DNA of 64,000 bases from Escherichia coli (GTDB lineage Bacteria > Pseudomonadota > Gammaproteobacteria > Enterobacterales > Enterobacteriaceae): the NCBI RefSeq assembly GCF_045037415.1, contig NZ_CP173438.1, one strand, 5' to 3'. Below are positions 15,765 to 55,948 of the stretch, piece by piece. Numbering within the stretch: position 1 is the stretch's first letter; the number at the start of each line of letters is the position of its first letter. The translations under genes and the position numbers were made by a program. Under the pieces are notes generated by a model that made no database searches, was not told the DNA's origin, and saw only the letters and a list, made by a program, of their open reading frames with translations.

Positions 15765-15855
15765 GGAGAGATGCCGGAGCGGCTGAACGGACCGGTTCTC
15801 GAAAACCGGAGTGGGGGCAACTCCACCGGGGGTTCAAATCCCCCTCTCTCCGCCA
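15765..15855 (+). tRNA. serU: tRNA-Ser (CGA anticodon region), serU-like, 3' part rebuilt from prophage attachment site
   Basis: 91 nt, GGAGAGA acceptor stem pairing with TCTCTCC, long variable arm, ends CCA; differs from canonical serU as recalled by one extra T in the anticodon loop and a compensatory G/C pair in the variable arm. Confidence 0.75.
15793..15855 (+). repeat. attL core: 63-bp direct repeat (tRNA-Ser 3' segment, phage-type variable arm)
   Basis: Identical to 55886-55948 except two positions (GTGGGGG/CTCCACC here versus GTAGGGG/CTCTACC at attR); identity ends exactly at CCA. Confidence 0.7.
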
Positions 15856-15900
15856 AAATTCAATCACTTACACATCATTAAGTCAGTGACAAAAATCACA

Positions 15901-15933
15901 CTTGGAATTACTTGGAATATTTTCTTGGAATAT
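15901..15933. repeat. Three direct repeats of CTTGGAAT(A/T)T, putative integrase arm-type binding sites
   Basis: CTTGGAATTA, CTTGGAATAT, CTTGGAATAT within 33 bp next to attL core, overlapping int 3' end; related copies at 55774-55783 and inverted at 55838-55846. Confidence 0.45.
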
Positions 15934-16933
15934 TTTCAGGTAACGGGACATCAAGTGTTGGTGAAACTTTAACCTTCCTGTCATAGATTAGCACTTGCCC
16001 CTCGGTTTTGTGACCAGAGAAAAGTTGCTTATCCCGGCTGCTTCCTTCATAGTCTGAAATTCCTTTCGCCTTCAGATCATGAAAGGTGAAGTCGGTTAAA
16101 ATACCTGAAATTTTGCCTGCGCGATTTCTTGCTTCTACCCACATTTCGTTAAAGCCTTTGTACATATATCGGTTGCCATATTGATTGCTGATTACATAGA
16201 CGGATGCTGGTAACTGTTTTGCTTTTTCGATCGCCGCCTGTAATCGTGGACTCCATGCTTTTATCTGTTTTTTCCCTGTTTTCCCTTGCTGGATAAAGAT
16301 CCCGTCGTTTCCAATCTGCTCCCATTTCAGTGATAACACATCGGAAACCCTCGCTGCACACAGATAGGCAATTTCCATTGCGATAAAAACAGGAAGAGGT
16401 GCAACGCTTAATACTGCCTGGTATTCTTTGTCGGTTACATATCGTTCGCGGTTTTTGGCCTTGAATTTACTTACACCTGCACATGGGTTAGCCTTCACGT
16501 ACCCTCGCTCATATCCCCAACTGTAAACGCGGGACATACTGCTTTTTTCATGGTTGGCTTGCGTTTTGCTCTGTTCCCCTCTTTTGTCCATGTATCGACG
16601 GATGTGTTCTGGTTTTATGGAATCCGCTGGTACCTTACCGAATACGGCAAGCAACTTTTTTTGATGTTGCAGATAATCTTTTTGTGTTCTTGGGCTAAGG
16701 TCACTGTAACAGGCGCTGGCGAGGAATTTTTCCCACAAGCGACCGAATGTCATTGCACGATCGCGATTATTTACAGTTTCCTCATACTTTTTCCATAAAG
16801 CAGCTAAACCATCCTTGATGGCGGTTAGTGTTACAGATTCTCTGGATGTTGGTTTCCATACATAACTATATTTATTTGGGTATACATTTGGAGGTAATTT
16901 TTCGTGTTCAGGATTTTTCCTTCGTCTTCCCAT
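15908..16933 (-). CDS. int: Phage tyrosine integrase
   Basis: 341-aa ORF next to attL/tRNA; C-terminal recombinase-type region (candidate HxxR and Tyr motifs). Confidence 0.9.
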   Translation of the reverse strand: MGRRRKNPEHEKLPPNVYPNKYSYVWKPTSRESVTLTAIKDGLAALWKKYEETVNNRDRAMTFGRLWEKFLASACYSDLSPRTQKDYLQHQKKLLAVFGKVPADSIKPEHIRRYMDKRGEQSKTQANHEKSSMSRVYSWGYERGYVKANPCAGVSKFKAKNRERYVTDKEYQAVLSVAPLPVFIAMEIAYLCAARVSDVLSLKWEQIGNDGIFIQQGKTGKKQIKAWSPRLQAAIEKAKQLPASVYVISNQYGNRYMYKGFNEMWVEARNRAGKISGILTDFTFHDLKAKGISDYEGSSRDKQLFSGHKTEGQVLIYDRKVKVSPTLDVPLPENIPRKYSK

Positions 16934-17136
16934 CAGATCGCACCAAAATTCGGCTCTACCTCGCGTGGTGGTAAAGTTTTATTGCAGGTAAATAGATCCC
17001 GGCTGACAATCGGTTTGCCACTACGATTGGTATAGAACGGAAGCCCGTTTTCCATTAACCATTTTCGCTGGTGACTTGCATATTTGCAGCCCGTTAATAT
17101 TAGCAATTCATCTTTGGTTAAAAATAAGCTGCTCAT
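16933..17136 (-). CDS. Putative excisionase / small DNA-binding protein
   Basis: 67-aa ORF immediately upstream of and coupled to int; position typical of xis; no motif confirmed. Confidence 0.45.
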   Translation of the reverse strand: MSSLFLTKDELLILTGCKYASHQRKWLMENGLPFYTNRSGKPIVSRDLFTCNKTLPPREVEPNFGAI

Positions 17137-17194
17137 AGCTATATCTCATAACCGCCGCTAACTATATGCGGTTAGCGGCGATCAGGGTTGAACA

Positions 17195-19669
17195 TTAAAA
17201 ATCAGCCTGACTCGGGATCAGTTTTTGCCAGATAGCTGAAACGTATTTTGCCTGGTAACGGGCGTCATCAAGTGCATTATGGCGCTCACCTTCGAATGGA
17301 ATAGCCGTTCTGGCATCGAAGTCTATGGCTTTCCCCAGCTCAACGATTGTGCGTACATCGCGATCGTTGTAGTAACGCCACGGGCAGGGGATCCCCTGCC
17401 GTTCGTATGAACGGCGCAAAATTGTGTTGTCGAAGTTGGCTCCATTTCCCCAGACCTGAACAAAAAATTCACCGGAGTTTTCGTCGATAAATTCCCGCAA
17501 TTGTAACAGTGCATCATCTAACGGGATTTCATCGGTCATAATGGCAGATTGCGCTTCGCGTGATTGCTTAAGCCACCATTTAATGGTGCCACGATCAATG
17601 ACTCCGCCAGCAGTATCCATATCGATGGTCTTACTAAATTCCGGCCCCATATCTCCGGTTTGCGGATCGAAAAATATTGCACCTATTGAGATAAGCGGGG
17701 CATCGGGATTTTTTCCCATGGTTTCAAGGTCGATCATCATGTGGTGCCACATTCTGCTGGTGGATGTGATTTTATGATGACCGTTCATGGTAATTAAGGG
17801 ATTTGCCGTCCCGCCAGCTTCATTATCGCTGGTGTGATGCTGATTACCGCCAGCGTTCTCTTTGTGCGGATATTCAACACGTTCCATTTCCTCCGGATCA
17901 TTTTCCTGAACTTCAACCTGATTCTCTTCATTGAATGTTTCCTGGTATGTTGCGTCACCCATCACCGCGCCACAATCAGGGCAGTTGCCGCCGCCGGTCT
18001 GACCGCAGGCGGTGCAGACTTTTTCCGGTTCCTGTTGCGCTACTGGTTCAGGTTGTTTCGTTTCTGGCTCGTTTTGTAACGCATTTGGGCTGTTTTGTTC
18101 CGCTTTCTGGCCGTTCTGTTCCGTTTCTTGCTGGTTCTGATTCACTGAATCGCGGGTTTCAATCCCCTTCACCCATTTCGGATCATTCGGGTCGCTAATC
18201 CCTGCAACAAATTCACCACGTGATACAGCAAGCAACTTATTGGCGTCAGGCTGGCTGATATTGGCTGCCTGCATAATTTTGTTTACTTCGTCAGCGGTAA
18301 CTTTTATCGGCTCTGGTTGTGCGATCGTGTCAGATGCACCAGTATTTTGTTGTGAACCTGAGTACGTGCCGTTTTTACGTGCGAAGTATTCCTCTTTTGT
18401 GATTTCCGTAGCTCCCAGGGCCAGTGCTTTTTCCAGACCAGAAAGTTTGTTTGCGCGACCGTATTTTTCGCCGTCCTTATCGGTGAAAAGGAAGTAGAAC
18501 GGTCCCTCACGCTCTACAGATGGTTCGTCTTCCACTTCGCATTCGGTTTTTTCGTTGTCCGGCATTGCCGTTTCCACTGCATCAGTTTCTGGTACTGGTG
18601 ACGGGAGAGTACCAGCTGTGCCCTGATTTGTTCCTTCGTCATCTTCAAACACGCCCTTGGTAGTCAGGTATTCAGTGATGTATTTGTTCAGTGCTACGGG
18701 ATCTTTGTGAATGTCGATCGGACGCTCACGGACAAGGCCAAAAATAGTCTGACGGTCGTAGCGAACGGCATCGGGTTGTTTGCGCATTGATGCGGAAATG
18801 CGCTTCCAGTCTTCGCGATCTTTGTCGATAACTTCATTTTTTGCCCAGCGATGGATGCTGCCGTCAATGTTTCCGGTATCAATATCGCCAGGCCAGAGAG
18901 CGTAGGCCAGTTCTTCATCCAGCGTTTTCCATGTCTGCTTGTATTCGCGACAAATGGCGGCAGTGACTGGGTTGATTTTTCCTGCTGAGTTTTCAGTGTT
19001 CTGTTGATTGACTCTGGCGCTGGCGAGATCAACAACAGACGTGTATTTTCCAGTCTCTTTGCGCTCTGCGTCCTGCCGTTTTTTCCAGTTACGTAATTCA
19101 GCCTGAATTTCGGGCCATTTGGCACCCGGATTACATTTGTGTTTAACCCATCCGATAGCGAACAGTTTGCGTTCCGGATACATAGCGTTAATTTCAGGCG
19201 TTTTCATCAGTGCTTCAACGATATGCCCGTCAAAGGTAGCAACGTCTTCCTGCAGTAATTCCTGCGCGTCAATCGCCATATCAACGGTGATGTTTTCACA
19301 TGTACCGAACTTAACCAGGACCGCGTTCTGTACTTCAAGGGACAGCTTGTCAAAATTGACGTTCATCGGATCGGATTCTGGTTCGACCGGAATAAAGGAA
19401 GCGGATTCCTCATCCCAGCGGTTTTCCTGCATATATTCAGCATCCCAGGAATCGAGGGCAGGGCGGGGTATACCGGGTTTATCCTCGCAAACAAGAAATT
19501 TATAAGCGCAGTCCTGAGCAGCCGGATAATGTTCCAGGAATTGCCAGTGAAATTTTGCGCGGGCGCGACGTTCATCACCGGCTTCAATGGCAGTGGCTAC
19601 AGCGACGGCACCTTCTTCCTTTATTGCCTGTTCGTCCGGAATGGCGGCGCAAATAAAGACTTTACTCAT
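17195..19669 (-). CDS. Large phage exonuclease (C-terminal DnaQ-like 3'-5' exonuclease domain, Cys-rich zinc-finger-like segment)
   Basis: 824-aa ORF; C-terminal region with exonuclease-type acidic motifs (MIDLETMG ... HNALDDA); CTACGQTGGGNCPDCG Cys cluster; resembles exodeoxyribonuclease VIII-like prophage proteins. Confidence 0.7.
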   Translation of the reverse strand: MSKVFICAAIPDEQAIKEEGAVAVATAIEAGDERRARAKFHWQFLEHYPAAQDCAYKFLVCEDKPGIPRPALDSWDAEYMQENRWDEESASFIPVEPESDPMNVNFDKLSLEVQNAVLVKFGTCENITVDMAIDAQELLQEDVATFDGHIVEALMKTPEINAMYPERKLFAIGWVKHKCNPGAKWPEIQAELRNWKKRQDAERKETGKYTSVVDLASARVNQQNTENSAGKINPVTAAICREYKQTWKTLDEELAYALWPGDIDTGNIDGSIHRWAKNEVIDKDREDWKRISASMRKQPDAVRYDRQTIFGLVRERPIDIHKDPVALNKYITEYLTTKGVFEDDEGTNQGTAGTLPSPVPETDAVETAMPDNEKTECEVEDEPSVEREGPFYFLFTDKDGEKYGRANKLSGLEKALALGATEITKEEYFARKNGTYSGSQQNTGASDTIAQPEPIKVTADEVNKIMQAANISQPDANKLLAVSRGEFVAGISDPNDPKWVKGIETRDSVNQNQQETEQNGQKAEQNSPNALQNEPETKQPEPVAQQEPEKVCTACGQTGGGNCPDCGAVMGDATYQETFNEENQVEVQENDPEEMERVEYPHKENAGGNQHHTSDNEAGGTANPLITMNGHHKITSTSRMWHHMMIDLETMGKNPDAPLISIGAIFFDPQTGDMGPEFSKTIDMDTAGGVIDRGTIKWWLKQSREAQSAIMTDEIPLDDALLQLREFIDENSGEFFVQVWGNGANFDNTILRRSYERQGIPCPWRYYNDRDVRTIVELGKAIDFDARTAIPFEGERHNALDDARYQAKYVSAIWQKLIPSQADF

Positions 19670-19748
19670 TTTGTTTTACCTCATTACAGATTTAAGGGTG
19701 AACAAATCCCTGCCATTGCTGGCATATAAAAATGAAACTGGATATTAA

Positions 19749-19958
19749 TTACGGCGCTGTTTTTAATCCTGCCGGGATTTCGTTATTGTCCATGTGAATA
19801 ACTTTATCGACCGGATAACAGTTGCCGGGAATTTTCTGTTCCGCTGCGGCAGCCATGCATTCTTTCATTGAGTTGTACATGCCGGTGATTGCATCAAGCG
19901 ACTCACCAGTATTGAGATATACAGTCAGAATGAGTATGAATAATGTGTTCATCGCCAC
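19749..19958 (-). CDS. Small hypothetical protein with N-terminal hydrophobic segment (AT-rich)
   Basis: 69-aa ORF, low GC, hydrophobic N-terminus LFILILTVYL; no family assigned. Confidence 0.35.
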   Translation of the reverse strand: MAMNTLFILILTVYLNTGESLDAITGMYNSMKECMAAAAEQKIPGNCYPVDKVIHMDNNEIPAGLKTAP

Positions 19959-20137
19959 TCTCCGAAAATACCGAGTTTAAGAAGGGCAATTCTGGAGAGT
20001 ATGGAATTGTCATTCAGCAGGTAGGGTTCATATTTTCTCATATTGATTGCATCCTCGGTGAAATCCCTGTTACTGAGCAGAACACCAATATTAAAGCACC
20101 CGTCAGACGTATTAACGTTTGGTAGTGACGTTTCCAT
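19949..20137 (-). CDS. Small hypothetical protein (AT-rich)
   Basis: 62-aa ORF in AT-rich stretch between exonuclease and rha; no family assigned. Confidence 0.3.
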   Translation of the reverse strand: METSLPNVNTSDGCFNIGVLLSNRDFTEDAINMRKYEPYLLNDNSILSRIALLKLGIFGEWR

Positions 20138-20147
20138 TATCGCGTCC

Positions 20148-20705
20148 TCAACAATGAATTTTTAGCAATTGCTCCACAGTCATATTTTTAATTGCGCTCC
20201 GGTTTACAAGAGTCCATCCTTGTTTCTCCAGATAAAACCGGAAGGTATCCAGGGTGCAGACCATTGCGCCGTCAGGAACGGTTTCAGTGAATTTGATATT
20301 GCCGTGTTCGTCGAGACGGATAACCAGGGTGCGTCCGTCCCCGTGAATCATTTTGTCGGGAGACGGGGCGTTATTCTGGCGCAGTTCTTCCTCCATGCGA
20401 TCGAACTCAGCGATGTAGGCTTCTTTGAAAGTTGCGGCTTTTTTACCTGTGAACCCCATCACCAGGAAAACGAAGCCGTTTTTGGTGATTTGGTACATTG
20501 GGAGTTTGCGCCCGGTTGAGTCGGTGTATTCGCTCGACACAAAATTGTGCTCAGTGAATTTTGCTGAACAGTCCAGATTGCGAATTTTATCCAACACTCG
20601 TTCGTGGCGTTTGCCAAAGAACTCGGCGATCGCAACAGACGTAGTGACAGCGCGACCATTTTCGATGGTTACGTCAGGGTGAGAAAGGGTAAGGATAGTA
20701 GCCAT
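20148..20705 (-). CDS. Rha-family phage regulatory protein (antirepressor-like)
   Basis: Rha-type N-terminal motif VTTSVAIAEFFGKRHERVLDKIRNL; start set at the internal ATG preceded by GGAGG (20705) rather than the track start at 21002. Confidence 0.6.
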   Translation of the reverse strand: MATILTLSHPDVTIENGRAVTTSVAIAEFFGKRHERVLDKIRNLDCSAKFTEHNFVSSEYTDSTGRKLPMYQITKNGFVFLVMGFTGKKAATFKEAYIAEFDRMEEELRQNNAPSPDKMIHGDGRTLVIRLDEHGNIKFTETVPDGAMVCTLDTFRFYLEKQGWTLVNRSAIKNMTVEQLLKIHC

Positions 20706-20873
20706 GATGGCAGCCTCCGCGATGAATTTGATTAACTCACCACCGAGGTTTTCCACGACCATAAGGGTGGTGAGACGTACAGGGGTGGAAATACCGGTCA
20801 TCACGGAACCCGGCCAGCCTTGCGGCTGCCCTGCACGCCCCACCATAATGCGAATGTGGCTGTGCTTAACGCA

Positions 20874-20898
20874 TAAAAAAACCGCCTGAGCGCGGTTA
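20874..20898 (-). terminator. Rho-independent terminator (minus strand) upstream of rha
   Basis: On minus strand AACCGC-GCTCAG-GCGGTT followed by TTTTTTTAT. Confidence 0.45.
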
Positions 20899-21540
20899 TG
20901 CGCCGTGAATGATTTCGGGTTTCCACGCCCGGCACCCGTTTTATGAGGTGCAGGTGCACTATAATTCCACCCGTTCTGGTTTTCAATAGCTACATTCAAC
21001 ATTTTCTCTACCTTTCATCACCGAAGTGAACTTTGTTGATGCGGTGCCTGGTGCCTCCAGGTGACGTTAACCAGTTAACAATTAACGCCGGATACAGAGA
21101 ATCCACCCATAACACTGTTTTTGGTTTTAACTGTTCCGCGTGCGCTTAGCCGCATTCACCGCATCACAAAATTCACTTTAAAAAGGGCGGCAGAGCAGTC
21201 ACGGAGTAGAACTGATACCGCCAAAAGTCACCAGAAAATTGATAACAGAGGGCGTTGCAGCGGGGTTGTCACTTAAGCGTATGGTCAACCTGACAACCCG
21301 GTGTCCTCAACGGGGGAAGGAATAACCCCGCCATACTTACCGCCGCGCCATTTCGCGGATTGCCACAACCGGAAGCGCACGGTCGACGAAAATTTAACGA
21401 CTACCTACAGAGAGACGAACTTCGCCGTGCGCTTTCGCGTTATGCCCTGACTTTTCAGGGATATATCCTTTTCAGTAAACTGTCAGTGCCGGATTCTTAT
21501 CCGTGTCCGGCGCACGCACTCTACCTCACCTGTGAATAAA

Positions 21541-21927
21541 TTAATGATTAATTGATATTTTGTTGTTTGATTCAACTTTCCCATCGGATGTGTGATGCTT
21601 TAAATCACAGGAATTAATACTGCTTGCTGTAAAATGATTTTCAAGGGGAGCTATTCGAATCCCTTTCTTTTTCATTAACAAGCCAAATCCTTTATTAATG
21701 ATGTCCATTAATTCCAGGAAGTATTTTTCATGTAAATCCTGGTTATCAGAGAGCTGCTTCTCTTCGCACAGACCGATAAAGGCACGACGAACGTTACCGG
21801 ATATAGTATCGATGGTTTCTTTTTCTACGGTACTCAGGTCAAGAGTCGCCAGTTGGGAACGAACTATATTCGCTGCCATTTCCTGGAATGGTACTGGTAA
21901 ATCTTTAAATTCCATCGTCAACCTCAT
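21541..21927 (-). CDS. Hypothetical phage early protein
   Basis: 128-aa ORF in early-left operon, coupled by one-base overlap to the upstream ORF; no family assigned. Confidence 0.4.
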   Translation of the reverse strand: MRLTMEFKDLPVPFQEMAANIVRSQLATLDLSTVEKETIDTISGNVRRAFIGLCEEKQLSDNQDLHEKYFLELMDIINKGFGLLMKKKGIRIAPLENHFTASSINSCDLKHHTSDGKVESNNKISINH

Positions 21928-22133
21928 CAGTCAGTGTTTCTGGTTAACCAGCGACGCGCGCCAGCTTCAGTTTTAAACGTTTTGCTTCTGGTATACGTCA
22001 TCGCGGTAAACGTGCCGTCCTGGTTGGGAAACACGCCGCATACCAGAGATTCGTTGTTGCCAAGATCGATAGTATCCATGCTGACCTCATTTCCCCTTAA
22101 CGCCAGGGTAGCGGAACTGTTTGCTGAGAACAC
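21927..22133 (-). CDS. Hypothetical phage early protein
   Basis: 68-aa ORF, first gene leftward of the immunity region. Confidence 0.35.
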   Translation of the reverse strand: MFSANSSATLALRGNEVSMDTIDLGNNESLVCGVFPNQDGTFTAMTYTRSKTFKTEAGARRWLTRNTD

Positions 22134-22158
22134 CGTGCGGTGTCTTGATGAGTAGAAT

Positions 22159-22172
22159 TTAGAATAATCTAA
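22159..22172. promoter_or_regulatory. Putative operator TTAGAATAATCTAA (TTAG-N6-CTAA palindrome), left operator
   Basis: Same 14-bp palindromic pattern as two sites in the repressor/cro intergenic region. Confidence 0.4.
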
Positions 22173-22286
22173 GAATTGTGGTCAAGCTTTTTGTGTAGAA
22201 AAACCTAAGTTTTTTTGATGTAAAAAACACAATCATTTGAAAGTTTGTGCTTTTTATTACAGAGAGTGGCGAAAAAAAAGGGGGGG

Positions 22287-22694
22287 TTATTTATTTGCGC
22301 TTCTTTTGCGAGCTTTGAGTAGTTCTTCAAAAAGTTTGTTGAAATTCTCAACTCGAGCACGCATCTCTGACAACAGAGCCTTTTGCTCTGACTCAGGCAG
22401 TGCGTCGAACAGTTGAAGCAACTCTTTTTGATCTTCTGTCAGATTAACTGGCTGATTATCTGGGATCGGTTCGCCTGGTTGCTTATCTTCATCTCCAAAA
22501 AGAAGCCAAGTCGGCGAGCACTGAAGCGCCTGGCTCAGTGCGAATAATCTCTTCCCCGCTGGCTGTGTTTCATCTCTTTCCCATTGAGAAATTGTTACGT
22601 GAGCCACTTTGACCAGCTTACCTAATGCGGCCTGAGACAGTTTTAATTTTTTACGCCTGTATAAGAGGCGAGCACCGAAGGTTTCGTTTTTCAT
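22287..22694 (-). CDS. Phage repressor, XRE/CI-type helix-turn-helix
   Basis: 135-aa ORF; N-terminal HTH SQAALGKLVKVAHVTISQWERDETQP; divergent from a Cro-like gene. Confidence 0.75.
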   Translation of the reverse strand: MKNETFGARLLYRRKKLKLSQAALGKLVKVAHVTISQWERDETQPAGKRLFALSQALQCSPTWLLFGDEDKQPGEPIPDNQPVNLTEDQKELLQLFDALPESEQKALLSEMRARVENFNKLFEELLKARKRSANK

Positions 22695-22695
22695 A

Positions 22696-22709
22696 TTAGG
22701 TAATTCTAA
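22696..22709. promoter_or_regulatory. Putative operator TTAGGTAATTCTAA abutting repressor start codon
   Basis: TTAG-N6-CTAA palindrome; a TTGACT -35-like hexamer follows at 22716-22721. Confidence 0.4.
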
Positions 22710-22746
22710 TTTTTCTTGACTTAGGTTTCTCTACGATCTAGTTTCC

Positions 22747-22760
22747 TTAGGAAAATCTAA
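22747..22760. promoter_or_regulatory. Putative operator TTAGGAAAATCTAA just upstream of cro RBS
   Basis: Third TTAG-N6-CTAA palindrome, immediately 5' of GGAG and ATG 22771. Confidence 0.4.
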
Positions 22761-22770
22761 GGAGTTCGAT

Positions 22771-22998
22771 ATGTTGAAAATTGATGCTATAGCGTTTTTT
22801 GGCAGCAAAACAAAGCTTGCCAATGCCGCAGGAGTTAGGCTGGCAAGCGTTGCTGCATGGGGGAAACTGGTTCCTGAAGGTCGCGCGATGCGTCTACAGG
22901 AGGCATCCGGCGGGGAACTTCAGTACGACCCCAAAGTTTATGACGAATATCGTAAGGCAAAGCGGGCGGGGCGGTTGAACAATGAAAATCACCCCTGA
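22771..22998 (+). CDS. Cro-like / YdaS-like small DNA-binding protein
   Basis: 75-aa ORF divergent from repressor with GGAG RBS; first gene of rightward early operon. Confidence 0.6.
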   Translation: MLKIDAIAFFGSKTKLANAAGVRLASVAAWGKLVPEGRAMRLQEASGGELQYDPKVYDEYRKAKRAGRLNNENHP

Positions 22999-23533
22999 AC
23001 AGGTTTGTGAGGCTCTGGATGCCTGGGTATGTCGACCAGGAATGACACAGGAGCAAGCGACGATATTAATCACGGAAGCATTCTGGGCTCTGAAAGAACG
23101 CCCGAACATCGATGTTCAACGCGTCACGTTTAATGATGGCGAGGTTGATCAACGGGCGCTGGGCGTTAACCGGGTGAAGATATTCGAACGCTGGAAAGCT
23201 ATCGACACCAGGGATAAGCGGAAAAAATTCACGGCGCTGATTCCGGCAATTATGGAGGCTATCCGAATTAGTGATTTCAGGTTGTATCGTGAGATCAGTG
23301 ATGGAAAAAGCATTACGTACATGATCGCCGGATTAAACAAAGAATATGGCGATGTGGTGGAGTCCGGGTTGCTTTTTGCGGATCCAGCTGTTGTGGAACG
23401 TGAGACTGACGAGCTTATAGAAAAAGCTATTGCTTTCAAGCATGCGTATCGTCAGCAATATCAATATTACTTTGCAGATAAACAAATGTCTGCCAGGGGT
23501 TTGTATGAGTATCGATGCACTACGATGGGCTAA
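22982..23533 (+). CDS. YdaT-like / CII-position regulatory protein
   Basis: 183-aa ORF overlapping cro-like stop; position equivalent to lambda cII or Rac ydaT; family assignment by recall only. Confidence 0.45.
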   Translation: MKITPEQVCEALDAWVCRPGMTQEQATILITEAFWALKERPNIDVQRVTFNDGEVDQRALGVNRVKIFERWKAIDTRDKRKKFTALIPAIMEAIRISDFRLYREISDGKSITYMIAGLNKEYGDVVESGLLFADPAVVERETDELIEKAIAFKHAYRQQYQYYFADKQMSARGLYEYRCTTMG

Positions 23534-24545
23534 AAAGGTGAAAACCGGCAGTTCATCCAGTAAGTCTGTATTGACCTGGCTTGCTGATATGTGCGGTGCC
23601 GATTTGTGTGCATACCCGTCTGTATCTGCACTGGCAGAAGTAACGGAACTAAACAAAAAGACTGTGCAGGACAGCTTACGACACCTGATGGAGATTGGGT
23701 TAATTGTTGATACCGGTGAGAGAAAAGGCAGAACAAAGCAAATTGTGGTGTACCGACTTATCGGTGTAGAAGAAAGTGTTGCCGAGCCTGAATACACCCA
23801 AAAACGGGAGTCTTTAAAGGTGGGTAAAATTGGTGCTGTTAATAAAAACAGTACCGAAAATGGTTATGTTTCAGCACAAAACAGACCCAAAAATGGAACT
23901 CTTAGCTGCATGGAAAATAACCAAAGACACCCAAATTTTCCATCAAAGACACCCAAAAACGGATCACGGAACCCAAAGGAACCCAAAGATCTAAACCCCA
24001 CACATAACGCACGCGAGAGTGCTCCGACCAGTGAGCAGGAAGTTTTGTCGTTACAGGCAGCACCCCTTGTATTCCTGGATGGCCTGAGCGAACCCATCGG
24101 AAAATTTCCGATGACCGATAGCTGGTATCCGTCACGGGATTTTCGACGACGGGCTGCGTTGTGGGGGATGGCTTTGCCGGAGACAGAATTTACACCTGCT
24201 GAACTTGCCGCCTTCCGGGACTACTGGGCAGCGGAGGGGAAAGTGTTTACGCAGATTCAGTGGGAGCAGAAATTCGCCCGTCACGTAAATCACGTCAGGG
24301 CGCAGGTTAAACCAGTCAGCAAGGGGGTAAACCATGCAGCAGCACCAGGTGGCACCGCATCACGGGCAGTTCAGGAAATTCGGGCAGCACGTGAGCAGTG
24401 GGAACGTGAAAACGGATTTATCAGCGACGGAAACAGTCTGGAAGCTGTGGGAACTCATGGGGGAGGTTTATTCGAACCGCTGGACCCAGAAGAACGGGGC
24501 CGCACCTTCGAAGCTCTGGATTGCACAGATTGGCGCGATGACTGA
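23505..24545 (+). CDS. Phage replication initiation protein (N-terminal winged-helix DNA-binding domain)
   Basis: Start chosen at MSIDALRWAKK; N-terminal domain typical of phage replication O-like/primosomal proteins; position after cro/cII-like genes. Confidence 0.55.
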   Translation: MSIDALRWAKKVKTGSSSSKSVLTWLADMCGADLCAYPSVSALAEVTELNKKTVQDSLRHLMEIGLIVDTGERKGRTKQIVVYRLIGVEESVAEPEYTQKRESLKVGKIGAVNKNSTENGYVSAQNRPKNGTLSCMENNQRHPNFPSKTPKNGSRNPKEPKDLNPTHNARESAPTSEQEVLSLQAAPLVFLDGLSEPIGKFPMTDSWYPSRDFRRRAALWGMALPETEFTPAELAAFRDYWAAEGKVFTQIQWEQKFARHVNHVRAQVKPVSKGVNHAAAPGGTASRAVQEIRAAREQWERENGFISDGNSLEAVGTHGGGLFEPLDPEERGRTFEALDCTDWRDD

Positions 24546-25803: not shown

Positions 25804-25818
25804 TTGCCGGAGACGCTT

Positions 25819-49109: not shown

Positions 49110-50185
49110 ACGACAATGTCACGCTACGGGTAAATGGCCGGGAGTGGAATGGCTGGACATCGGTGCGCATCGGTGCCGGTATTGAACGGCTGGCGCGGGA
49201 TTTCAGTGTGGAGATCACCCGCCAGTGGCCGGGTGATGAGGGTATCACCACGCTTCAGCCGCGCATTAAAAACGGTTCAAAAGTGGAAGTGCTGATTGGT
49301 GATGAGCTGGTGATCACCGGCTGGGTGGAGGCGACTCCCGTTCATTACGATGCCCGTTCGGTCAGCACCGGTATTGCCGGACGTAGTCTGACGGCTGACC
49401 TGATTGACTGTGCAGCCGAACCGACACAGTTTAACGGACGCTCGCTGGTGCAGATTGCGCAGGCGCTTGCTGCGCCTTTCGGCATTGAGGTGGTGAACAG
49501 CGGTGCGCCATCGGGTGTTATTCCTGATGTTCAGCCTGATCACGGTGAAACGGTGATTGAGGTAATCAACAAAATACTCGGTCAGCAGCAGGCACTGGCT
49601 TACGACGACCCGCACGGCAGGCTGGTGATTGGCGGTATTGGCTCAACGCGGGCACATACCGCGCTGGTACTTGGGGAAAATATCCTTTCCTGTGATACGG
49701 AGAAGAGTATCCGGGAGCGGTTTTCTGTTTACCAGGTGGCGGGGCAGCGTGCCGGAAACGACGATGATTTCGGTGAGGCCACCACCACCGCGCTGCGGGC
49801 CCGCACAGAGGACGCATTTATTGCCCGTTACCGTCCGATGTATATCAGGCAGACAGGGCAGGCTACGGGGGCAGGCTGTATTGCGCGTGCTGACTTTGAA
49901 GCCCGACAACGGGCGGCGCGGACGGATGAAACCACCTATGTGGTGCAGGGCTGGCGACAGGGTAACGGTACGCTGTGGCAGCCCAACCAGCGGGTGATTG
50001 TCTTTGATCCGGTCTGTGGTTTTGACAATACCGAACTGCTTGTCTCGGAAGTCACGTTTACTCAGGACCAGAACGGCACCCTGACGGAAATCCGTGTCGG
50101 CCCGCCTGATGCTTATCTGCCTGAACCCGAAGACCCCGGCGCGCGGAAAAAGAAAAAAGCCAGAGTACAGGAGGACCCGTTCTGA
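49106..50185 (+). CDS. Mu P-like tail/baseplate hub protein
   Basis: 359 aa. Confidence 0.65.
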   Translation: MNDNVTLRVNGREWNGWTSVRIGAGIERLARDFSVEITRQWPGDEGITTLQPRIKNGSKVEVLIGDELVITGWVEATPVHYDARSVSTGIAGRSLTADLIDCAAEPTQFNGRSLVQIAQALAAPFGIEVVNSGAPSGVIPDVQPDHGETVIEVINKILGQQQALAYDDPHGRLVIGGIGSTRAHTALVLGENILSCDTEKSIRERFSVYQVAGQRAGNDDDFGEATTTALRARTEDAFIARYRPMYIRQTGQATGAGCIARADFEARQRAARTDETTYVVQGWRQGNGTLWQPNQRVIVFDPVCGFDNTELLVSEVTFTQDQNGTLTEIRVGPPDAYLPEPEDPGARKKKKARVQEDPF

Positions 50186-50733
50186 TGAGGGCGATTGAAG
50201 CCATGCAGCGACAACTACTCGGCCTGATTGGGCGGGCCGTGGTGAAAAGCATCAGTGCCGCCACGAAATGTCAGACCGTGGATGTGTCCCTGATTGCCGG
50301 TGAACCCAAAGCCGGGGTTGAACATCTTGAACCCTACGGTTTTACCGCAAGGGCAAACAGCGGTGCGGAAGCGGTGGTGTTGTTTCCGGATGGCGACCGT
50401 TCTCATGCGGTGGTTGTTACGGTGTCGGACCGGCGCTACCGCCTGAAAGGACTGCAGACGGGTGAGGTGGCTGTCTATGACGATCAGGGGCAGTCCGTGA
50501 CGCTGACCCGGGAGGGGATCGTGGTGGACGGTGCAGGTAAAACGATCACGTTTCGCAATTCACCTAAAGCACGTTTTGAAATGGACCTGGAAGTGACAGG
50601 ACAGGTGAAAGACCTGTGCGACTCCGGCGGCACCACCATGTCAGCGATGCGGCTTGCCTATAACGGGCATCGTCACAGAGAGAACGGTCAGGGCAGTAAC
50701 ACCGACAAACCGGATAAAGCGATGGAGGCATGA
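50185..50733 (+). CDS. Baseplate assembly protein V-like (spike)
   Basis: 182 aa. Confidence 0.6.
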   Translation: MRAIEAMQRQLLGLIGRAVVKSISAATKCQTVDVSLIAGEPKAGVEHLEPYGFTARANSGAEAVVLFPDGDRSHAVVVTVSDRRYRLKGLQTGEVAVYDDQGQSVTLTREGIVVDGAGKTITFRNSPKARFEMDLEVTGQVKDLCDSGGTTMSAMRLAYNGHRHRENGQGSNTDKPDKAMEA

Positions 50734-51158
50734 TGGAACTGTGGCTGACGGTGAACGGTAAACGCACCTGCGCCAGCGCACCGCTGGATCCGCTGACCCG
50801 CGCCGTGGTGATTTCCCTGTTTACCTGGCGGCGGGCGGAGCCTGATGACAACGCCGACGTCCCGATGGGATGGTGGGGGGATACCTGGCCTGCGGTACAG
50901 AATGACCGTTACGGCTCCCGGCTGTGGCTGCTTCAGCGCAGCAAACTGACCAATCAGCTGGTGCAGACGGTAAGGGGGTATATCCGCGAATGCCTGCAAT
51001 GGATGATTGATGACGGCGTGGTGTCCCGTATTGATCTGGATATCCGCCGCACCGGGATTAATGAACTGGGTAACAGTATCACTCTCTGGCGTCGTGACGG
51101 ACCGGTAATGATTTCTTTTGATGATCTGTGGAGTGCGATAACGCATGGCGGACAGTGA
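50730..51158 (+). CDS. Baseplate protein (Mu gp46 / GPW-like)
   Basis: 142 aa. Confidence 0.6.
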   Translation: MMELWLTVNGKRTCASAPLDPLTRAVVISLFTWRRAEPDDNADVPMGWWGDTWPAVQNDRYGSRLWLLQRSKLTNQLVQTVRGYIRECLQWMIDDGVVSRIDLDIRRTGINELGNSITLWRRDGPVMISFDDLWSAITHGGQ

Positions 51159-52203
51159 ATTTCAGCGCCCGACGCTGGCAGAAAATATCAGTATGCTCCG
51201 TAACGATTTATTCGCCAGGCTGGACGTCAGCGACACGCTCCGGCGCATGGATGAAGACGTGCGGGCAAAGGTGTATGCGGCGGCGCTGCATACGGTTTAT
51301 GGGTACATCGATTATCTGGCAATGAATATGCTGCCTGACCTGTGCGATGAGTCCTGGCTGGCACGACATGCTGCGATGAAACGGTGTCCGCGCAAGGGGG
51401 CCACGGCTGCCAGCGGGTATATGCGCTGGGAAGGTGTCAGCGATGGCCTGAAGGTGACTGCCGGGAGCGTGATTCAGCGCGATGACCTGGTTCAGTACAC
51501 GGCAACTGCCGATGCAACCAGCTCCGGTGGTGTCCTGCGTGCGCCGATCACTTGCTCAACTACAGGCGCGGTCGGTAACGCTGACGACGGTACGGCATTA
51601 ATCCTGGTCACGCCGGTGAATGGTCTGCCGTCTTCCGGTGTTGCAGATACCCTGACTGGCGGATTCGATACTGAAGATCTGGAAACGTGGCGCGCCCGCG
51701 TCATTGAGCGGTATTACTGGACGCCGCAGGGCGGGGCTGACGGGGACTATGTCGTCTGGGCTAAAGAAGTGCCCGGCATTACCCGCGCATGGACATACCG
51801 TCACTGGATGGGAACGGGAACTGTCGGTGTGATGATTGCCAGCAGTGACCTGATTAATCCCATTCCGGAAGAATCAACGGAAACGGCGGCAAGACAACAT
51901 ATCGGGCCACTGGCCCCGGTGGCAGGCTCTGATTTATATGTATTCAGGCCGGTGGCGCATAAAGTGGATTTTCATATCCGCGTGACGCCGGACACACCGG
52001 AAATACGGGCTGCCATCACCGCCGAGTTGCGTTCGTTCCTGCTGCGTGATGGTTATCCGCAGGGAGAACTGAAGGTGTCGCGTATCAGTGAAGCGATTTC
52101 CGGTGCGAACGGGGAATACAGCCATCAGTTGCTTGCACCGGCAGACAATATCTCCATTGCAAAAAATGAACTGGCGGTACTGGGGACGATTTCATGGACG
52201 TGA
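51145..52203 (+). CDS. Baseplate J-like protein
   Basis: 352 aa. Confidence 0.75.
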
Positions 52204-52778
52204 CAAACGATGATTACATCCGTCTGTTGTCGGCACTGTTGCCCCCCGGTCCGGCGTGGTCATCCAGCGATCCAGCGATTGCCGGTGCGGCACCGTCATT
52301 AACCCGCGTTCATCAGCGTGCGGATGCCCTGATGCGGGAGCTGGATCCGCGCACCACCACTGAACTGATAAACCGCTGGGAGCGTCTGTGCGGCCTGCCG
52401 GATGAATGTATTCCGGCGGGAACGCAGACCCTTCGCCAGCGTCAGCAACGGCTGGATGCGAAGGTTAATCTGGCGGGCGGCATCAATGAGGATTTTTACC
52501 TTGCACAGCTTGCTGCCCTGGGCAGACCAGACGCCACCATCACGCGATACGACAAAAGCACGTTCACCTGCTCATCGGCCTGTACTGACGCAGTGAATGC
52601 GACGGAATGGCGGTATTACTGGCAGGTCAACATGCCAGCCGCCACCAACACCACCTGGATGACATGTGGCGATCCCTGTGATTCCGCACTGCGTATCTGG
52701 GGCGATACCGTTGTCGAGTGCGTGCTTAACAAACTCTGCCCTTCGCATACCTACGTAATTTTCAAATATCCGGAGTAA
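52194..52778 (+). CDS. Tail protein, DUF2313/YmfQ-like (Mu gp48-like)
   Basis: 194 aa. Confidence 0.6.
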
Positions 52779-52781
52779 TCC

Positions 52782-55157
52782 ATGCATCGTATAGACACGA
52801 AAACCGCGCAGAAGGATAAGTTCGGCGCGGGTAAGAACGGTTTTACCCGTGGTAACCCCCAGACCGGCACGCCTGCCACCGATCTGGATGATGACTACTT
52901 TGACATGTTGCAGGAAGAACTTTGCAGCGTGGTGGAGGCCTCCGGTGCCAGTCTGGAGAAGGCGCGGCACGACCAGCTGCTTACCGCGCTTCGTGCGCTG
53001 CTGTTAAGCCGCAAAAATCCGTTTGGCGATATCAAATCGGATGGCACGGTAGAACGCGCTCTTGAAAATCTGGGGTTACAGGATGTAAAAGCTGGTTCAT
53101 TGAACAATCTGTACACTAACCATTCCCGTAGTGTCTTAATGGAATTGCCGTTATTATTCCCAGACTACGATACGGTGCTGGCTGCTCAGTCTGGTGCGGA
53201 ATATATGTATCCACAGGGATTTGTGGTGACAGGAGAAAAAATCTATCTGAGTTATACCGTTGAGCCAAAGCAGACACGGAACGTTATAGTTCAGTACACA
53301 ACATCCGGCGAATATGAGGGATATTATTATGTCGATAATGGAGGTCGTGGCGTTGTCAGCGAAGGCCTTGTGGTGACAACGGATTACGGTGGATTACGTT
53401 TGTTCATGTCAGGAGAAAATGGATTACTGAAACAGTTTTCGCTTGATGGGGCAATTTCTGGTTCAGTATTGCCGTTAATTGATGAACATGATGTCGGTGT
53501 TTACAACCAGTTCAGCTATCGTAAAAACCGCTGGGTGGTTGAACAGTCAGCGCCGGAAGTGGGAGGCCTGATCACCCGCACAGTATTTGCGGTGTATGAT
53601 TTTCAGTTTCGTCGGACAGGGACATTCACATTACCGTTGCATGATTCCGGATATATCACGGAAAGCACAGACAGCTATGCAAGACGCTTCACAAAACGTC
53701 AGGGAATTGCTGTGGGAGACGATTATATTGCCTGTTCTTATGGTGGCTATTTTAATACCGGGGCATCAGCCGGATTTAACCAGTTTCAGGGGGTTAAGGT
53801 CTTTTCTCCGGATGGAGTAAAGCAGCAGGAATCCATTCTTCATCCCCAAAAAATGATAGATGTGCTTACCAGGCAGGGTTTTACACCTTCGCGCATTGAG
53901 AACGAAGGAATTTGTATTTCTGACGACGGCGGCAGTATATATTCGCTTTATATCTTTCTGGAGCGTGGGTTACCACAGGCTTATCAGAAAGGAATTGTTC
54001 TGATGAAAGAGTTCAGTACTGGCAGAGATGCTATTGATTTTCGTCAGGCAGCCTGGTTGTACACGGGGTTTGATGTGTCTCATGCCAGTATTGGAACATT
54101 TCCCCGTAGTGCCCAGGGGTTGGTAAACCCGGTGTTGGGGACGGTATTCACATCCCTGTCTGAAATTCTGGCATATATGCGTTCTGTGAGTCAGAAATGG
54201 TTTTGTCTGCATACAACCACGACACCGATTAAAGATCTGAGTGGAAATGACATTCCTGCTGACAATTATGTGTTCATCAAGAATGCTAATAACCAGACAT
54301 TCTATATAACGCAGGAGTCAGCTGAAGGTGGAATAAAATATAAAGCTGTCACTACAGACAGCGGAGAATATGGTTTTCAGCGACAAAGAGAGGCAATCTG
54401 GTCCAATGTTATCACCATCGCACAAAAGAGCGATGGTGAGGATCAGTTTAATCGTATTATCGCTGCCTCGAAAAGTGGTTCAGGTAAAAATCAGGATAAA
54501 ATACTGGTAGTTGACCAACAGGCATCAGAGGGGAATAACACGCTGGTAATTGGCGGTGGTTCATCTGTGTTCAGGTCAGCGACAGTGATTGATTTTGCAA
54601 CGAATCAGGATGCAAATGCCACAGGAGGAGAAAAGAGATGGCGCATAGATTCATCAGGAAATCTCCGCCCTTATACAGATAATACGTATTCGATCGGTTA
54701 TGCCTCATGGCGACCCGCACAGGTTTATTCAGCTACGGGAAGTATCAGTACATCAGACCGGACTCATAAACAGGACGAAACAATTCTGTCGGATGCAGAA
54801 AAAAGGGTTGCCAGAAAGCTGCTCGGGTATATCTGTCGGTTCCGTTTCAGAGATGCAGTGTCCAGCAAAGGGAACGCAGCCAGATGGCATGTAGGAGTGA
54901 TTGCTCAGGACGTACAGAAGGTCTTCTCTGAGGAAGGGCTGGACGCTTTTGATTACGGTATTTTGTGTCGTGATGAATATCCGGCGGAATATGAAGTGGT
55001 TTACGGGACTCGTATGGAGCTTGGTCCTGACGGACTCCTTACAATGGAAGAATACGATACCGGAGAGCGCAAGCTGGTCAGGGAGGCTGGTGAAATAATG
55101 TCTGTAAGGAATGATGAGCTGCATTATTTCATGCTGGCATCGCTGTCTGGCCAGTGA
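52782..55157 (+). CDS. Tail fiber protein with C-terminal intramolecular chaperone (peptidase S74-like) domain
   Basis: 791 aa; conserved N-terminus, AT-rich variable central part, C-terminal S-D-R-T-H-K motif (about 54750-54770) and downstream conserved block typical of self-cleaving chaperone domains. Confidence 0.75.
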
Positions 55158-55773
55158 ATAATATTAATGTAAGGAGCGATATAAGCTCCTTACATCATGC
55201 ATTTTATGCTGCGATTATGCGTTCTCCTGTTGTTTGTTGCTGAGAGTGAAACACCGGAAACATACTGGTGGATTGAAATGTTCTGTGTGGCAGCGTATGA
55301 ATATGTCGTGGTAGGGTGGATAAAAAATGCCCGTGATGATCCGGGCAACATAGCAGTATGCATTTTTCTATTGTGAACTGATGCATTATACAAGTAATGC
55401 TGTTATTGAGGAAAGTTTAAAGAAGCGGCTCTTCTCCGCCTGTAAAGTTTGGTCATTATTGCTTTATATATAAGTTCCACCAGTAGGCGATCATCTATGA
55501 TGTTGGCATATCGACTTTGTATAAGAGGTTTCCGGTCGGAGATAAATGAAACCGTAGCACGTCGTATGCAAGAACGTGCCACGGCTGGCTGGCGAACTTT
55601 CGATAGTGCGAGTATTGAATGATTTCCAGCTGTTACTGATTTTATATAACTGCAGTGGAATTATTCAACACACAGGCAAAACGGAATAAGCTGAGAAAAA
55701 AAAGCGTGCTTTCCCAATCTGGGGTAAATCACATCTGAATGACACCTGAAAACAGGTGGTGGCCTCAAGAAGG

Positions 55774-55846
55774 CTTGGAATATTCTTCTTTAATGTTATG
55801 TAATTTATTGATTTTTCGTGTACGATTTTAAGACATTTATTCCAAG
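55774..55846. repeat. Integrase arm-type site copies at right prophage end (CTTGGAATAT at 55774-55783; inverted TATTCCAAG at 55838-55846)
   Basis: Same decamer as the triple repeat next to attL. Confidence 0.4.
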
Positions 55847-55885
55847 AAAAATTTTTAACTCTTTGATTTTTCGACTCTGTATCAT

Positions 55886-55948
55886 CGGTTCTCGAAAACC
55901 GGAGTAGGGGCAACTCTACCGGGGGTTCAAATCCCCCTCTCTCCGCCA
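55886..55948 (+). repeat. attR core: 63-bp direct repeat carrying the host-type tRNA-Ser 3' segment
   Basis: Matches 15793-15855 with two mismatches; variable arm here matches canonical serU as recalled. Confidence 0.7.

What the first reader, a model, noticed from the sequence alone, without database searches (positions are those of the whole stretch)
15793..55948. Prophage boundaries defined by 63-bp imperfect direct repeats of the tRNA-Ser 3' end
The repeats run from the anticodon-stem region to the CCA end and differ at only two paired positions in the variable arm. The copy completing the intact tRNA next to int (15793-15855) carries the variant pair, and the distal copy (55886-55948) carries what I recall as the host-type pair. 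This places the crossover 5' of the variable arm and shows the resident tRNA 3' half is phage-derived. Int arm-type decamers CTTGGAATAT occur three times next to attL (15901-15933) and again, direct and inverted, near attR (55774-55846).
Basis: seen in the sequence. Interest (0 to 1): 0.45.

Follow-up and report, generated by a model that had tools for sequence, protein, structure and literature searches.

The report
Ordinary prophage inserted in serU tRNA
A 40-kb SfV/ST64B-like prophage sits in the serine tRNA gene serU of an E. coli ST131-type chromosome, bounded by the usual attachment-site repeats; this is textbook and already known, and the odd extra base in the tRNA anticodon loop is almost certainly a sequencing artefact.

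Summary
The repeats at 15793-15855 and 55886-55948 are 63 nt and differ at two bases that form one compensatory pair in the tRNA variable arm. Removing the element in silico gives a sequence 100% identical over 1007 nt to prophage-free E. coli, including ST131 and K-12, so the boundaries are exact. The host allele is A-U and the phage allele next to int is G-C. The crossover therefore lies in the anticodon stem-loop (15793-15812).

The arm-site reading is supported. All five CTTGGAAT copies in the window lie within 112 bp of the cores. Three relatives (KpF5, Chris1, ST64B) have five repeats at the same offsets but with different words, and their Int N-terminal domains differ in parallel.

Three corrections:
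- The window's tRNA is 91 nt, with an extra T in the anticodon loop of both copies. None of 5,426 complete E. coli genomes has it. Four of the five GGTCTC/GAGACC sites in the window carry 1-nt indels, and ST131 methylates this motif (EcoMI, identical to Eco31I). I read this as an assembly artefact, so the true repeat is 62 nt.
- Only two of the three attL decamers are exact.
- The RefSeq "frameshifted" int label reflects a 13-bp repeat-number polymorphism downstream of the conserved domain, not a broken gene.

serU is a well-known prophage site. Interest is low.

The parts
15765..15855 (+). serU, tRNA-Ser(CGA). The 5' part (to 15792) is host; the 3' part is the phage-supplied copy. It is 91 nt in the window because of an extra T at 15796; it is 90 nt in every related genome.
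   Evidence: ARAGORN gives 'tRNA-???' on the window but tRNA-Ser(cga), 90 nt, on the otherwise identical THO-003 locus. Alignments.
15793..15855 (+). attL core repeat (phage-type G-C pair at 15813/15824).
15793..15812 (.). Interval that must contain the strand-exchange point: the anticodon stem-loop, CGGT(T)CTCGAAAACCGGAGT. The anticodon stem halves form an inverted repeat (candidate core-type Int sites) around the 7-nt loop CTCGAAA.
   Evidence: Bounded on the left by the end of attL/attR identity and on the right by the first allele difference. Identity with the tRNA starts at the same CGGTCTCG in KpF5, Chris1 and ST64B attP. The position of the cuts inside the interval is inferred.
15901..15933 (+). 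Three direct P' arm-type sites (CTTGGAATTA, CTTGGAATAT, CTTGGAATAT). The last two are a 13-bp unit, CTTGGAATATTTT, repeated twice. They overlap the 3' end of int.
15908..16933 (-). int, a tyrosine integrase of 341 aa. The conserved region is complete (R195, H285, H308, Y317). It is 55-61% identical to the Int proteins of ST64B, KpF5 and Chris1.
16933..17136 (-). Putative excisionase (67 aa, DUF4224) immediately upstream of int.
   Evidence: in ST64B the gene at the same position is annotated 'excisionase'. The function here is inferred.
15856..55885 (.). Prophage body, about 40 kb: int-xis-exonuclease, a lambdoid immunity/replication region, lysis genes, HNH and P27-type terminase, an HK97-type head, and a Mu/SfV-type contractile tail, baseplate and tail fibres.
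   Evidence: RefSeq annotation of the near-identical THO-003 region. The structural module is 94-97% identical to Shigella phages SfV, SfIV, SfII and SfI.
55774..55783 (+). P-arm arm-type site, direct (CTTGGAATAT).
55837..55846 (-). P-arm arm-type site, inverted (CTTGGAATAA).
55801..55868 (-). Two matches to the IHF consensus WATCAANNNNTTR (55801-55813 and 55856-55868), one on each side of the inverted arm site.
   Evidence: three of the four matches in the whole window lie at 55801-55964. Binding is inferred.
55886..55948 (+). attR core repeat, a partial tRNA-Ser 3' copy with the host-type A-U pair (55906/55917). It also carries the extra T, at 55889.
43843..43843 (.). Not part of the att system. 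An extra A inside a GAGACC site splits the tail-sheath ORF (498 aa in THO-003) into 323 and 223 aa. It has the same signature as the extra T in the two att copies.

Best explanation
This is a temperate phage integrated by Campbell-type site-specific recombination into serU, the E. coli tRNA-Ser(CGA) gene. It combines an SfV-like structural module with an ST64B-type integration module.

The phage attP carries a copy of the tRNA from the 5' strand of the anticodon stem to the CCA end. Its tyrosine integrase exchanges strands within the anticodon stem-loop. After integration, attL is the host 5' part of the tRNA joined to the phage 3' part (G-C allele), which keeps the gene whole. attR is the phage P arm joined to the displaced host 3' part (A-U allele).

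The recombination complex is probably lambda-like. The Int N-terminal domain would bind five arm-type sites: one direct and one inverted in the P arm, and three direct in the P' arm overlapping the int 3' end. IHF-type bends and a DUF4224 excisionase would help.

Shown here: the repeats, the exact junctions, the origin of each allele, the 20-nt crossover interval, and the conserved arm-site layout. Inferred: the exact cut positions, Int, IHF and Xis binding, and whether the prophage still excises.

The extra T in both repeat copies is not part of this biology. It is a motif-specific assembly error at methylated GGTCTC sites.
For: 1. The repeats are real and unique in the window.

2. In-silico excision matches empty serU sites at 100.0% over 1007 nt; 3850 genomes have a contiguous site. 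K-12 agrees.

3. The same attL-int junction is present in 1146 of 5426 complete E. coli genomes from unrelated lineages, always with G-C in attL in the four aligned.

4. Int has the Phage_integrase domain. Its conserved residues align with the Ints of ST64B, KpF5 and Chris1, and those phages' attP regions carry the same tRNA-Ser segment starting at the same base.

5. In all four attP regions the most frequent 7-mer occurs five times, at offsets of about -112 (+), -48 (-), +107, +117 and +130 (+). The words differ (CTTGGAA, TGAGAAA, TTGGTAT, GAGAAAA). Across pairs whose words differ, the Int N-terminal 62 columns are 31-48% identical against 60-65% for the rest of the protein. KpF5 and ST64B share a word and are 86% identical there.

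6. Three of the four IHF-consensus matches in the window lie at the attR region.

7. serU is a documented prophage site: SE11 PP_SE11-6 with a 77-nt att (PMC2608844), O145:H28 prophages (PMC7067040), and the phage record 'SerU-LTIIb' with a partial tRNA-Ser next to yodB.

8. Artefact reading. Against the near-identical ST131 genome THO-003 the window differs at only 7 events in 64 kb, and 4 of them hit 4 of the 5 GGTCTC/GAGACC sites. One of these breaks the tail-sheath ORF. No complete genome has the extra T; the best match is 99.7%, which is one gap. ST131 EC958 encodes EcoMI, 100% identical to M1.Eco31I, and methylates 100% of GAGACC sites (PMC4659465).
Against: No packaged-phage record with this exact attP was found. 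The two closest 'phage' records (vB_EcoM-606R7 and 689R5) include host flank and are therefore prophage extracts. Excision competence is untested. RefSeq labels this int 'frameshifted', although the difference lies beyond the conserved region. Int carries Lys where the second catalytic Arg is expected (HDLK), though all four homologues do. Counted over the whole window, the 8-mer CTTGGAAT is not over-represented (5 against 2.79 expected); the argument rests on its clustering and on comparative positions. The sequencing platform of the window is unknown, so the artefact explanation is an inference from the pattern.
Confidence: 0.93

Rival explanations
1. The extra T is real. The source strain would then carry a serU tRNA with an 8-nt anticodon loop (or a 6-bp stem with a 6-nt loop) and the same change in the attR copy. 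This could arise from a mutation in the overlap region that spread to both sites through excision and re-integration or through gene conversion. The result would be a non-functional tRNA-Ser(CGA) or a frameshift-suppressor-like one.
For: The same insertion is present in both copies. The site is not a long homopolymer. The 91-nt RNA still folds as a cloverleaf, with a 6-bp anticodon stem.
Against: The same kind of 1-nt change hits 4 of the 5 GGTCTC/GAGACC sites in the window, including sites unrelated to att, and one of them breaks the tail-sheath gene. Four of 7 differences falling on about 30 nt out of 64,000 is not a chance outcome. None of 5,421 matching genomes has it. The motif is fully methylated in ST131. 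The variable-arm differences 17 and 28 nt away were not homogenised, which argues against gene conversion.
Confidence: 0.03
2. The element is a fixed, defective prophage remnant that can no longer excise. The repeats would then mark a historical insertion only.
For: RefSeq marks int as a frameshifted pseudogene in ST131, O157:H7 and a swine strain. The prophage is clonally conserved in ST131. Int has Lys at the Arg-II position.
Against: The 'frameshift' is a change in copy number of a 13-bp unit. Two copies are present in about 1100 of 1146 genomes and three copies in 24. It alters only residues after about 331, where the Ints of the phages ST64B and KpF5 already end. All modules are present and, apart from artefact sites, the ORFs are intact. 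Many ST131 genomes have a perfectly empty site, which is compatible with either loss or never having been lysogenised.
Confidence: 0.2
3. The 63-nt repeat is a partial tRNA duplication or a chance repeat unrelated to integration, and the true element is larger or smaller than the interval it bounds.
For: A second island, HPI with its own integrase, lies only 1 kb upstream at tRNA-Asn, so composite structures were conceivable.
Against: The match of the in-silico excised site to empty sites is exact. int and xis lie directly inside attL. Only two copies of the core exist in the window.
Confidence: 0.01

Closest known systems
Salmonella phage ST64B integration module (Int Sb28, excisionase Sb29, attP with a tRNA-Ser fragment); likewise Klebsiella phage KpF5 and Citrobacter phage Chris1
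   Same: Int is 55-61% identical over about 330 aa. attP contains the tRNA-Ser(CGA) segment starting at the same CGGTCTCG. Five arm-type repeats lie at the same offsets. The int-xis-exonuclease gene order is shared.
   Different: The arm-site word differs (CTTGGAAT against TGAGAAAA or TTGGTATA), and the Int N-terminal domain differs with it. The phage tRNA copy here carries a G-C variable-arm allele, whereas KpF5 and Chris1 carry the E. coli-type A-U. The Int ORF runs 10 aa further, into the arm sites.
Shigella flexneri serotype-converting phages SfV, SfIV, SfII and SfI
   Same: The packaging, head, contractile tail and baseplate module is 94-97% identical in DNA over 49-62% of a 22.8-kb query.
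   Different: From general knowledge, those phages integrate at thrW with another integrase and carry gtr serotype-conversion genes next to att. Here the integration module is serU-specific, and no gtr genes are annotated.
Phage lambda attP/Int/Xis/IHF intasome
   Same: A tyrosine integrase with separate arm-type and core-type recognition. There are five arm sites, split two in the P arm and three in the P' arm, with IHF-consensus sites between them and an excisionase gene upstream of int.
   Different: attB is inside a tRNA gene and the identity block is 62 nt, against lambda's 15-bp core (general knowledge). One P-arm site is direct and one inverted. Int has Lys at the Arg-II position. Binding was not tested.
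Other E. coli prophages at serU (SE11 PP_SE11-6; O145:H28 and O121:H19 effector-carrying prophages; 'SerU-LTIIb'; phage ev099)
   Same: Same chromosomal site, and a partial tRNA-Ser copy at the distal end. ev099, mEp332 and PhiR70_1 share 195 bp of the P arm at 95-97% identity.
   Different: Their bodies are different (lambdoid siphoviruses carrying toxin or effector cargo). The ev099 record carries 278 bp of host right flank after the core.

Membership tests
Integrated temperate phage at a tRNA gene (Campbell model, tyrosine-integrase type) | Direct repeats (attL/attR) flank the element, and one of them completes the tRNA gene | tested here: met
Integrated temperate phage at a tRNA gene (Campbell model, tyrosine-integrase type) | Related genomes have an unoccupied site equal to the flanks joined through a single repeat copy | tested here: met
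   100.0% over 1007 nt; a contiguous site in 3850 genomes; K-12 agrees
Integrated temperate phage at a tRNA gene (Campbell model, tyrosine-integrase type) | A tyrosine recombinase gene lies adjacent to one att site, with catalytic residues present | tested here: met
   PF00589, E=8e-11. R195, H285, H308 and Y317 are invariant across four homologues; the Arg-II position is Lys in all four.
Integrated temperate phage at a tRNA gene (Campbell model, tyrosine-integrase type) | A full set of phage modules lies between the repeats | tested here: met
   Annotation of the near-identical THO-003 region; SfV-like structural module
Integrated temperate phage at a tRNA gene (Campbell model, tyrosine-integrase type) | Excision gives circular attP and restored attB | not testable with these tools
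   Needs PCR or sequencing of induced cultures
Anticodon-loop sublocation class of tRNA-integrating elements (Williams 2002 scheme, recalled from knowledge) | The attP/attB identity block starts in the 5' strand of the anticodon stem and runs to the tRNA 3' end | tested here: met
   Identity begins at CGG of the anticodon stem in this element and in KpF5, Chris1 and ST64B
Anticodon-loop sublocation class of tRNA-integrating elements (Williams 2002 scheme, recalled from knowledge) | Strand exchange occurs across the 7-nt anticodon loop, flanked by the symmetric stem | tested here: inconclusive
   The crossover is confined to 15793-15812, which contains the loop. The exact cuts are not determinable in silico.
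Lambda-type (heterobivalent) integrase with arm-type sites | Repeated arm-type words in both arms of attP, distinct from the core sequence | tested here: met
   Five copies, all within 112 bp of the cores. The exact decamer occurs 3 times against 0.08 expected. The same five offsets are found in three relatives with different words.
Lambda-type (heterobivalent) integrase with arm-type sites | The N-terminal arm-binding domain co-varies with the arm word | tested here: met
   N-terminal identity is 31-48% against 60-65% for the rest of the protein. The pair sharing a word (KpF5 and ST64B) is 86% identical there. This is four sequences only, so it is suggestive.
Lambda-type (heterobivalent) integrase with arm-type sites | Physical binding of Int, IHF and Xis to these sites | not testable with these tools
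   IHF consensus matches cluster at the P arm, but binding needs footprinting or EMSA.

The most novel reading that the evidence does not exclude
The 13-bp unit CTTGGAATATTTT is both a P' arm-type Int site and the last codons of int, and it varies between 1, 2 and 3 copies among E. coli lysogens. Slippage there could act as a switch that changes the number of P' arm sites and the Int C-terminal tail together (341 versus 360 aa), and so tune integration or excision efficiency. The evidence shows the polymorphism but says nothing about any functional effect.
Probability: 0.1. Interest if true: 0.35.

Novelty: already known. Interest (0 to 1): 0.08.

Why it matters
The biology adds little. It is a clean, well-delimited example of tRNA-targeted phage integration at a site (serU) already catalogued in many E. 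coli lineages, and the prophage itself is present in hundreds of public ST131 genomes.

The practical points are these:
- The att coordinates can be used with confidence to delimit the prophage.
- The non-canonical tRNA and the broken tail-sheath gene in this assembly should not be read as biology. They flag motif-specific errors at the Eco31I/EcoMI methylation site, which probably recur genome-wide in the source assembly.
- The 'frameshifted integrase' label on this gene in RefSeq is probably misleading.

Tried and rejected
- I looked for a packaged-phage record with the true attP of this phage. The close hits (vB_EcoM-606R7, vB_EcoS-689R5) include mtfA, tRNA-Asn and HPI genes, so they are prophage extracts. 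ev099, mEp332 and PhiR70_1 share the P arm and core but continue into E. coli right-flank DNA, so they look like attR rather than attP.
- A literature search for 'serU' with word-start matching mostly returned 'serum'. The whole-word search worked. I could not find which named ST131 prophage (Phi1 to Phi7 of EC958) this one is.
- Whole-window enrichment of CTTGGAAT is not significant (5 against 2.79; at one mismatch or fewer for the decamer, 4 against 3.73). Only the exact decamer count, the clustering and the comparative layout carry weight.
- I considered that the extra T might mark a frameshift-suppressor-like tRNA, or a mutation in the overlap region that spread to both sites. I rejected this after the window-versus-THO-003 comparison showed the same lesion at unrelated GGTCTC/GAGACC sites.
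- I considered that int is a pseudogene and rejected that as the likely reading.
- I did not run the large metagenome, genome-collection, structure-prediction or protein-database tools. Nothing in the question needed them.


Full report
**1. The observation**

The window holds a tRNA at 15765-15855 (+) and a second copy of its 3' part at 55886-55948. The repeat finder reports this as the only convincing direct-repeat family: 63 nt, 61/63 identical, 40,093 bp apart. A 20-mer from it occurs exactly twice, against 0 expected. The two mismatches (15813 G vs 55906 A; 15824 C vs 55917 U) are the two sides of one base pair of the variable-arm helix.

The decamer CTTGGAATAT is exact at 15911, 15924 and 55774, which is 3 matches against 0.08 expected. 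The copy at 15901 is CTTGGAATTA and the inverted copy at 55837-55846 is CTTGGAATAA. All five copies of the 8-mer CTTGGAAT in the 64 kb lie within 112 bp of a core repeat.

**2. Context**

The window is an E. coli ST131-type chromosome. The gene order is yersiniabactin island (HPI) with its integrase, tRNA-Asn, mtfA, tRNA-Ser (serU), prophage, zinT. It is 99.99% identical to strain THO-003 and to many other ST131 genomes.

Directly inside attL lie:
- int (15908-16933, minus strand, 341 aa, Phage_integrase domain);
- a 67-aa DUF4224 protein in the excisionase position;
- a large exonuclease.

The rest is a complete-looking phage. It has a lambdoid immunity/replication region, lysis genes, HNH and P27-type terminase, an HK97-type head, a contractile tail and baseplate, and tail fibres. 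The structural half is 94-97% identical to Shigella phages SfV, SfIV, SfII and SfI. The integrase is 55-61% identical to those of Salmonella ST64B, Klebsiella KpF5 and P7641, and Citrobacter Chris1.

**3. Boundaries**

I joined the left flank and tRNA 5' part (15300-15792) to the attR copy and right flank (55886-56400) and removed the extra T discussed in section 6. The 1007-nt product matches prophage-free E. coli genomes at 100.0% over its full length, ST131 strains among them. A contiguous site is present in 3850 of 5426 complete genomes. K-12 has the same arrangement, mtfA-serU-(yodB)-zinT, and its sequence directly 3' of the CCA end equals the window's right flank.

**4. Which allele is whose, and where the crossover lies**

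Empty sites and K-12 carry the A-U pair. The copy next to int carries G-C in ST131, O157:H7, a swine isolate and strain 382634_2f. Overall, the same attL-int junction is found in 1146 of 5426 genomes. The 3' half of the resident tRNA is therefore phage DNA, and the displaced host half sits at attR.

Strand exchange must have occurred between the left end of identity (15793) and the first allele difference (15813). This interval is the anticodon stem-loop, CGGTCTCGAAAACCGGAGT in the true sequence. In KpF5, Chris1 and ST64B the tRNA-like block of attP starts at the same CGGTCTCG. This fits the well-known anticodon-loop class of tRNA integration sites, in which the symmetric stem serves as core-type sites and the 7-nt loop as the overlap region. 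That class description is from my own knowledge, and the exact cuts are not determined here.

**5. Arm-type sites**

I reconstructed attP in silico and compared it with the attP regions of KpF5, Chris1 and ST64B. In each region the most frequent 7-mer outside the core occurs five times, at nearly the same offsets from the core:

| Offset from core | Orientation |
|---|---|
| about -112 | direct |
| about -48 | inverted |
| about +107 | direct |
| about +117 | direct |
| about +130 | direct |

The words differ between phages: CTTGGAA here, TGAGAAA or GAGAAAA in KpF5 and ST64B, and TTGGTAT in Chris1.

The Int N-terminal 62 alignment columns are 31-48% identical between phages with different words, while the rest of the protein is 60-65% identical. 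KpF5 and ST64B share a word and are 86% identical in that region. The window's Int is closest to Chris1 there (48%), and Chris1's word differs from this one by a single base. Conserved position, changed word and matching protein divergence are what real arm sites should show. With only four sequences this is supportive rather than conclusive.

Three of the four matches to the IHF consensus in the whole window lie at 55801, 55856 (P arm) and 55952. This is consistent with a lambda-like intasome.

**6.

The window's tRNA is 91 nt, with GGTTCTC where serU has GGTCTC. ARAGORN cannot assign an anticodon, yet it calls the otherwise identical THO-003 gene tRNA-Ser(CGA), 90 nt. The same extra T is present in the attR copy.

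I compared the whole window with THO-003. There are only seven difference events in 64 kb, and four of them fall on four of the five GGTCTC/GAGACC sites of the region:
- 15796, +T;
- 55889, +T;
- 43843, +A, which is the same change read on the other strand;
- 28968-28970, GAGACC to AGAACC.

Only the site at 45093 is intact. The change at 43843 splits the tail-sheath ORF from 498 aa into 323 and 223 aa. A fifth difference is an A7 to A8 homopolymer change.

No complete E. coli genome has the extra T; the best match is 99.7%, which corresponds to one gap. GGTCTC is the Eco31I site. ST131 strain EC958 encodes EcoMI, 100% identical to M1.Eco31I, with m6A on GAGACC detected at 100% of sites and m5C predicted on GGTCTC (PMC4659465).

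The parsimonious reading is a motif-specific base-calling or assembly error at a methylated site. The true repeat is then 62 nt and the tRNA is normal. The platform is unknown, so this remains an inference. I put the chance that the insertion is real at about 3%.

**7. The 'frameshifted' integrase**

RefSeq marks this int as a frameshifted pseudogene in ST131, O157:H7 and other strains. The cause is the 13-bp unit CTTGGAATATTTT, which is both an arm site and the end of the ORF. It is present twice here and in about 1100 of the 1146 lysogens, three times in 24 genomes (where int is 360 aa and unflagged), and once in at least one genome. The Ints of ST64B, KpF5 and Chris1 end at about residue 330, upstream of this region, and all conserved residues are present here. 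The gene is therefore probably functional, but excision competence is untested.

**8. Comparison with what is known**

serU is an established prophage integration site:
- SE11 PP_SE11-6, with an att of 77 nt (PMC2608844);
- O145:H28 prophages (PMC7067040);
- the 'SerU-LTIIb' phage record, with a partial tRNA-Ser next to yodB.

The mechanism is the textbook Campbell/lambda scheme applied to a tRNA gene, and the prophage itself is in hundreds of public genomes. Nothing here is new in kind.

**9. Verdict**

The main explanation has confidence of about 0.93. Novelty: already known. Interest: low. The useful by-products are quality-control notes on the assembly (errors at the methylated motif) and on the RefSeq annotation of int.

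Noticed in passing
window 15796, 55889, 43843, 28968-28970 (intact site at 45093); also 58001: Four of the five GGTCTC/GAGACC (Eco31I/EcoMI) sites carry 1-nt indels relative to a near-identical ST131 genome. One of them splits the tail-sheath gene. There is also an A7 to A8 homopolymer difference at 58001. The pattern fits methylation-linked systematic assembly errors that probably recur across the source genome.
   Followed up: yes
window 15911-15936 (3' end of int and P' arm): The 13-bp unit CTTGGAATATTTT varies between 1, 2 and 3 copies among E. coli lysogens. It shifts the int stop codon (341 versus 360 aa) and explains the RefSeq 'frameshifted' label on the commonest (2-copy) form.
   Followed up: yes
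L006 (phage ev099, LR597635.1) 2501-3035; also mEp332 and PhiR70_1: These phage genome records contain the same P arm and core, followed by 278 bp of E. coli chromosomal DNA from the right of serU, and then an AraC-type regulator and transposase genes before their integrase. This is an attR-like junction inside a phage genome. It could reflect past imprecise excision or an extended att homology.
   Followed up: partly
window 15908-16933 (Int residues 285-288): The Int motif is HDLK, with lysine where tyrosine recombinases usually have the second catalytic arginine. This is conserved in ST64B, KpF5 and Chris1.
   Followed up: no
window 1-14536: The yersiniabactin high-pathogenicity island (irp2, ybtA/P/Q/X/S) and its own integrase (about 13274-14536, minus strand) sit at tRNA-Asn (14698-14773). 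Two tRNA-targeted mobile elements thus lie only about 1 kb apart, separated by mtfA.
   Followed up: no
window 55949-56617 versus K-12 (L014 1591-3032): The serU-zinT spacer is about 670 bp here and about 1440 bp in K-12, where yodB (cytochrome b) is annotated. No gene is annotated in this spacer in THO-003, so this lineage appears to lack yodB. The empty-site ST131 genomes matched the first 452 bp of this spacer (to 56400) exactly; the rest of the spacer was not compared with them.
   Followed up: no
window 52782-55157: A continuous 791-aa tail-fibre ORF is present. The RefSeq annotation of the identical THO-003 sequence lists only a partial stfP and a separate 'tail fiber domain' protein. 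The EC958 genome paper (PMC4134206) describes invertible tail-fibre segments in ST131 prophages, so orientation variants may exist.
   Followed up: no
window about 57529-58878: By coordinate transfer from THO-003, an IS3-family element (IS1397-like) lies just beyond zinT. The weak second repeat family (50163 and 57868, 71% identity) touches it and looks like chance.
   Followed up: no
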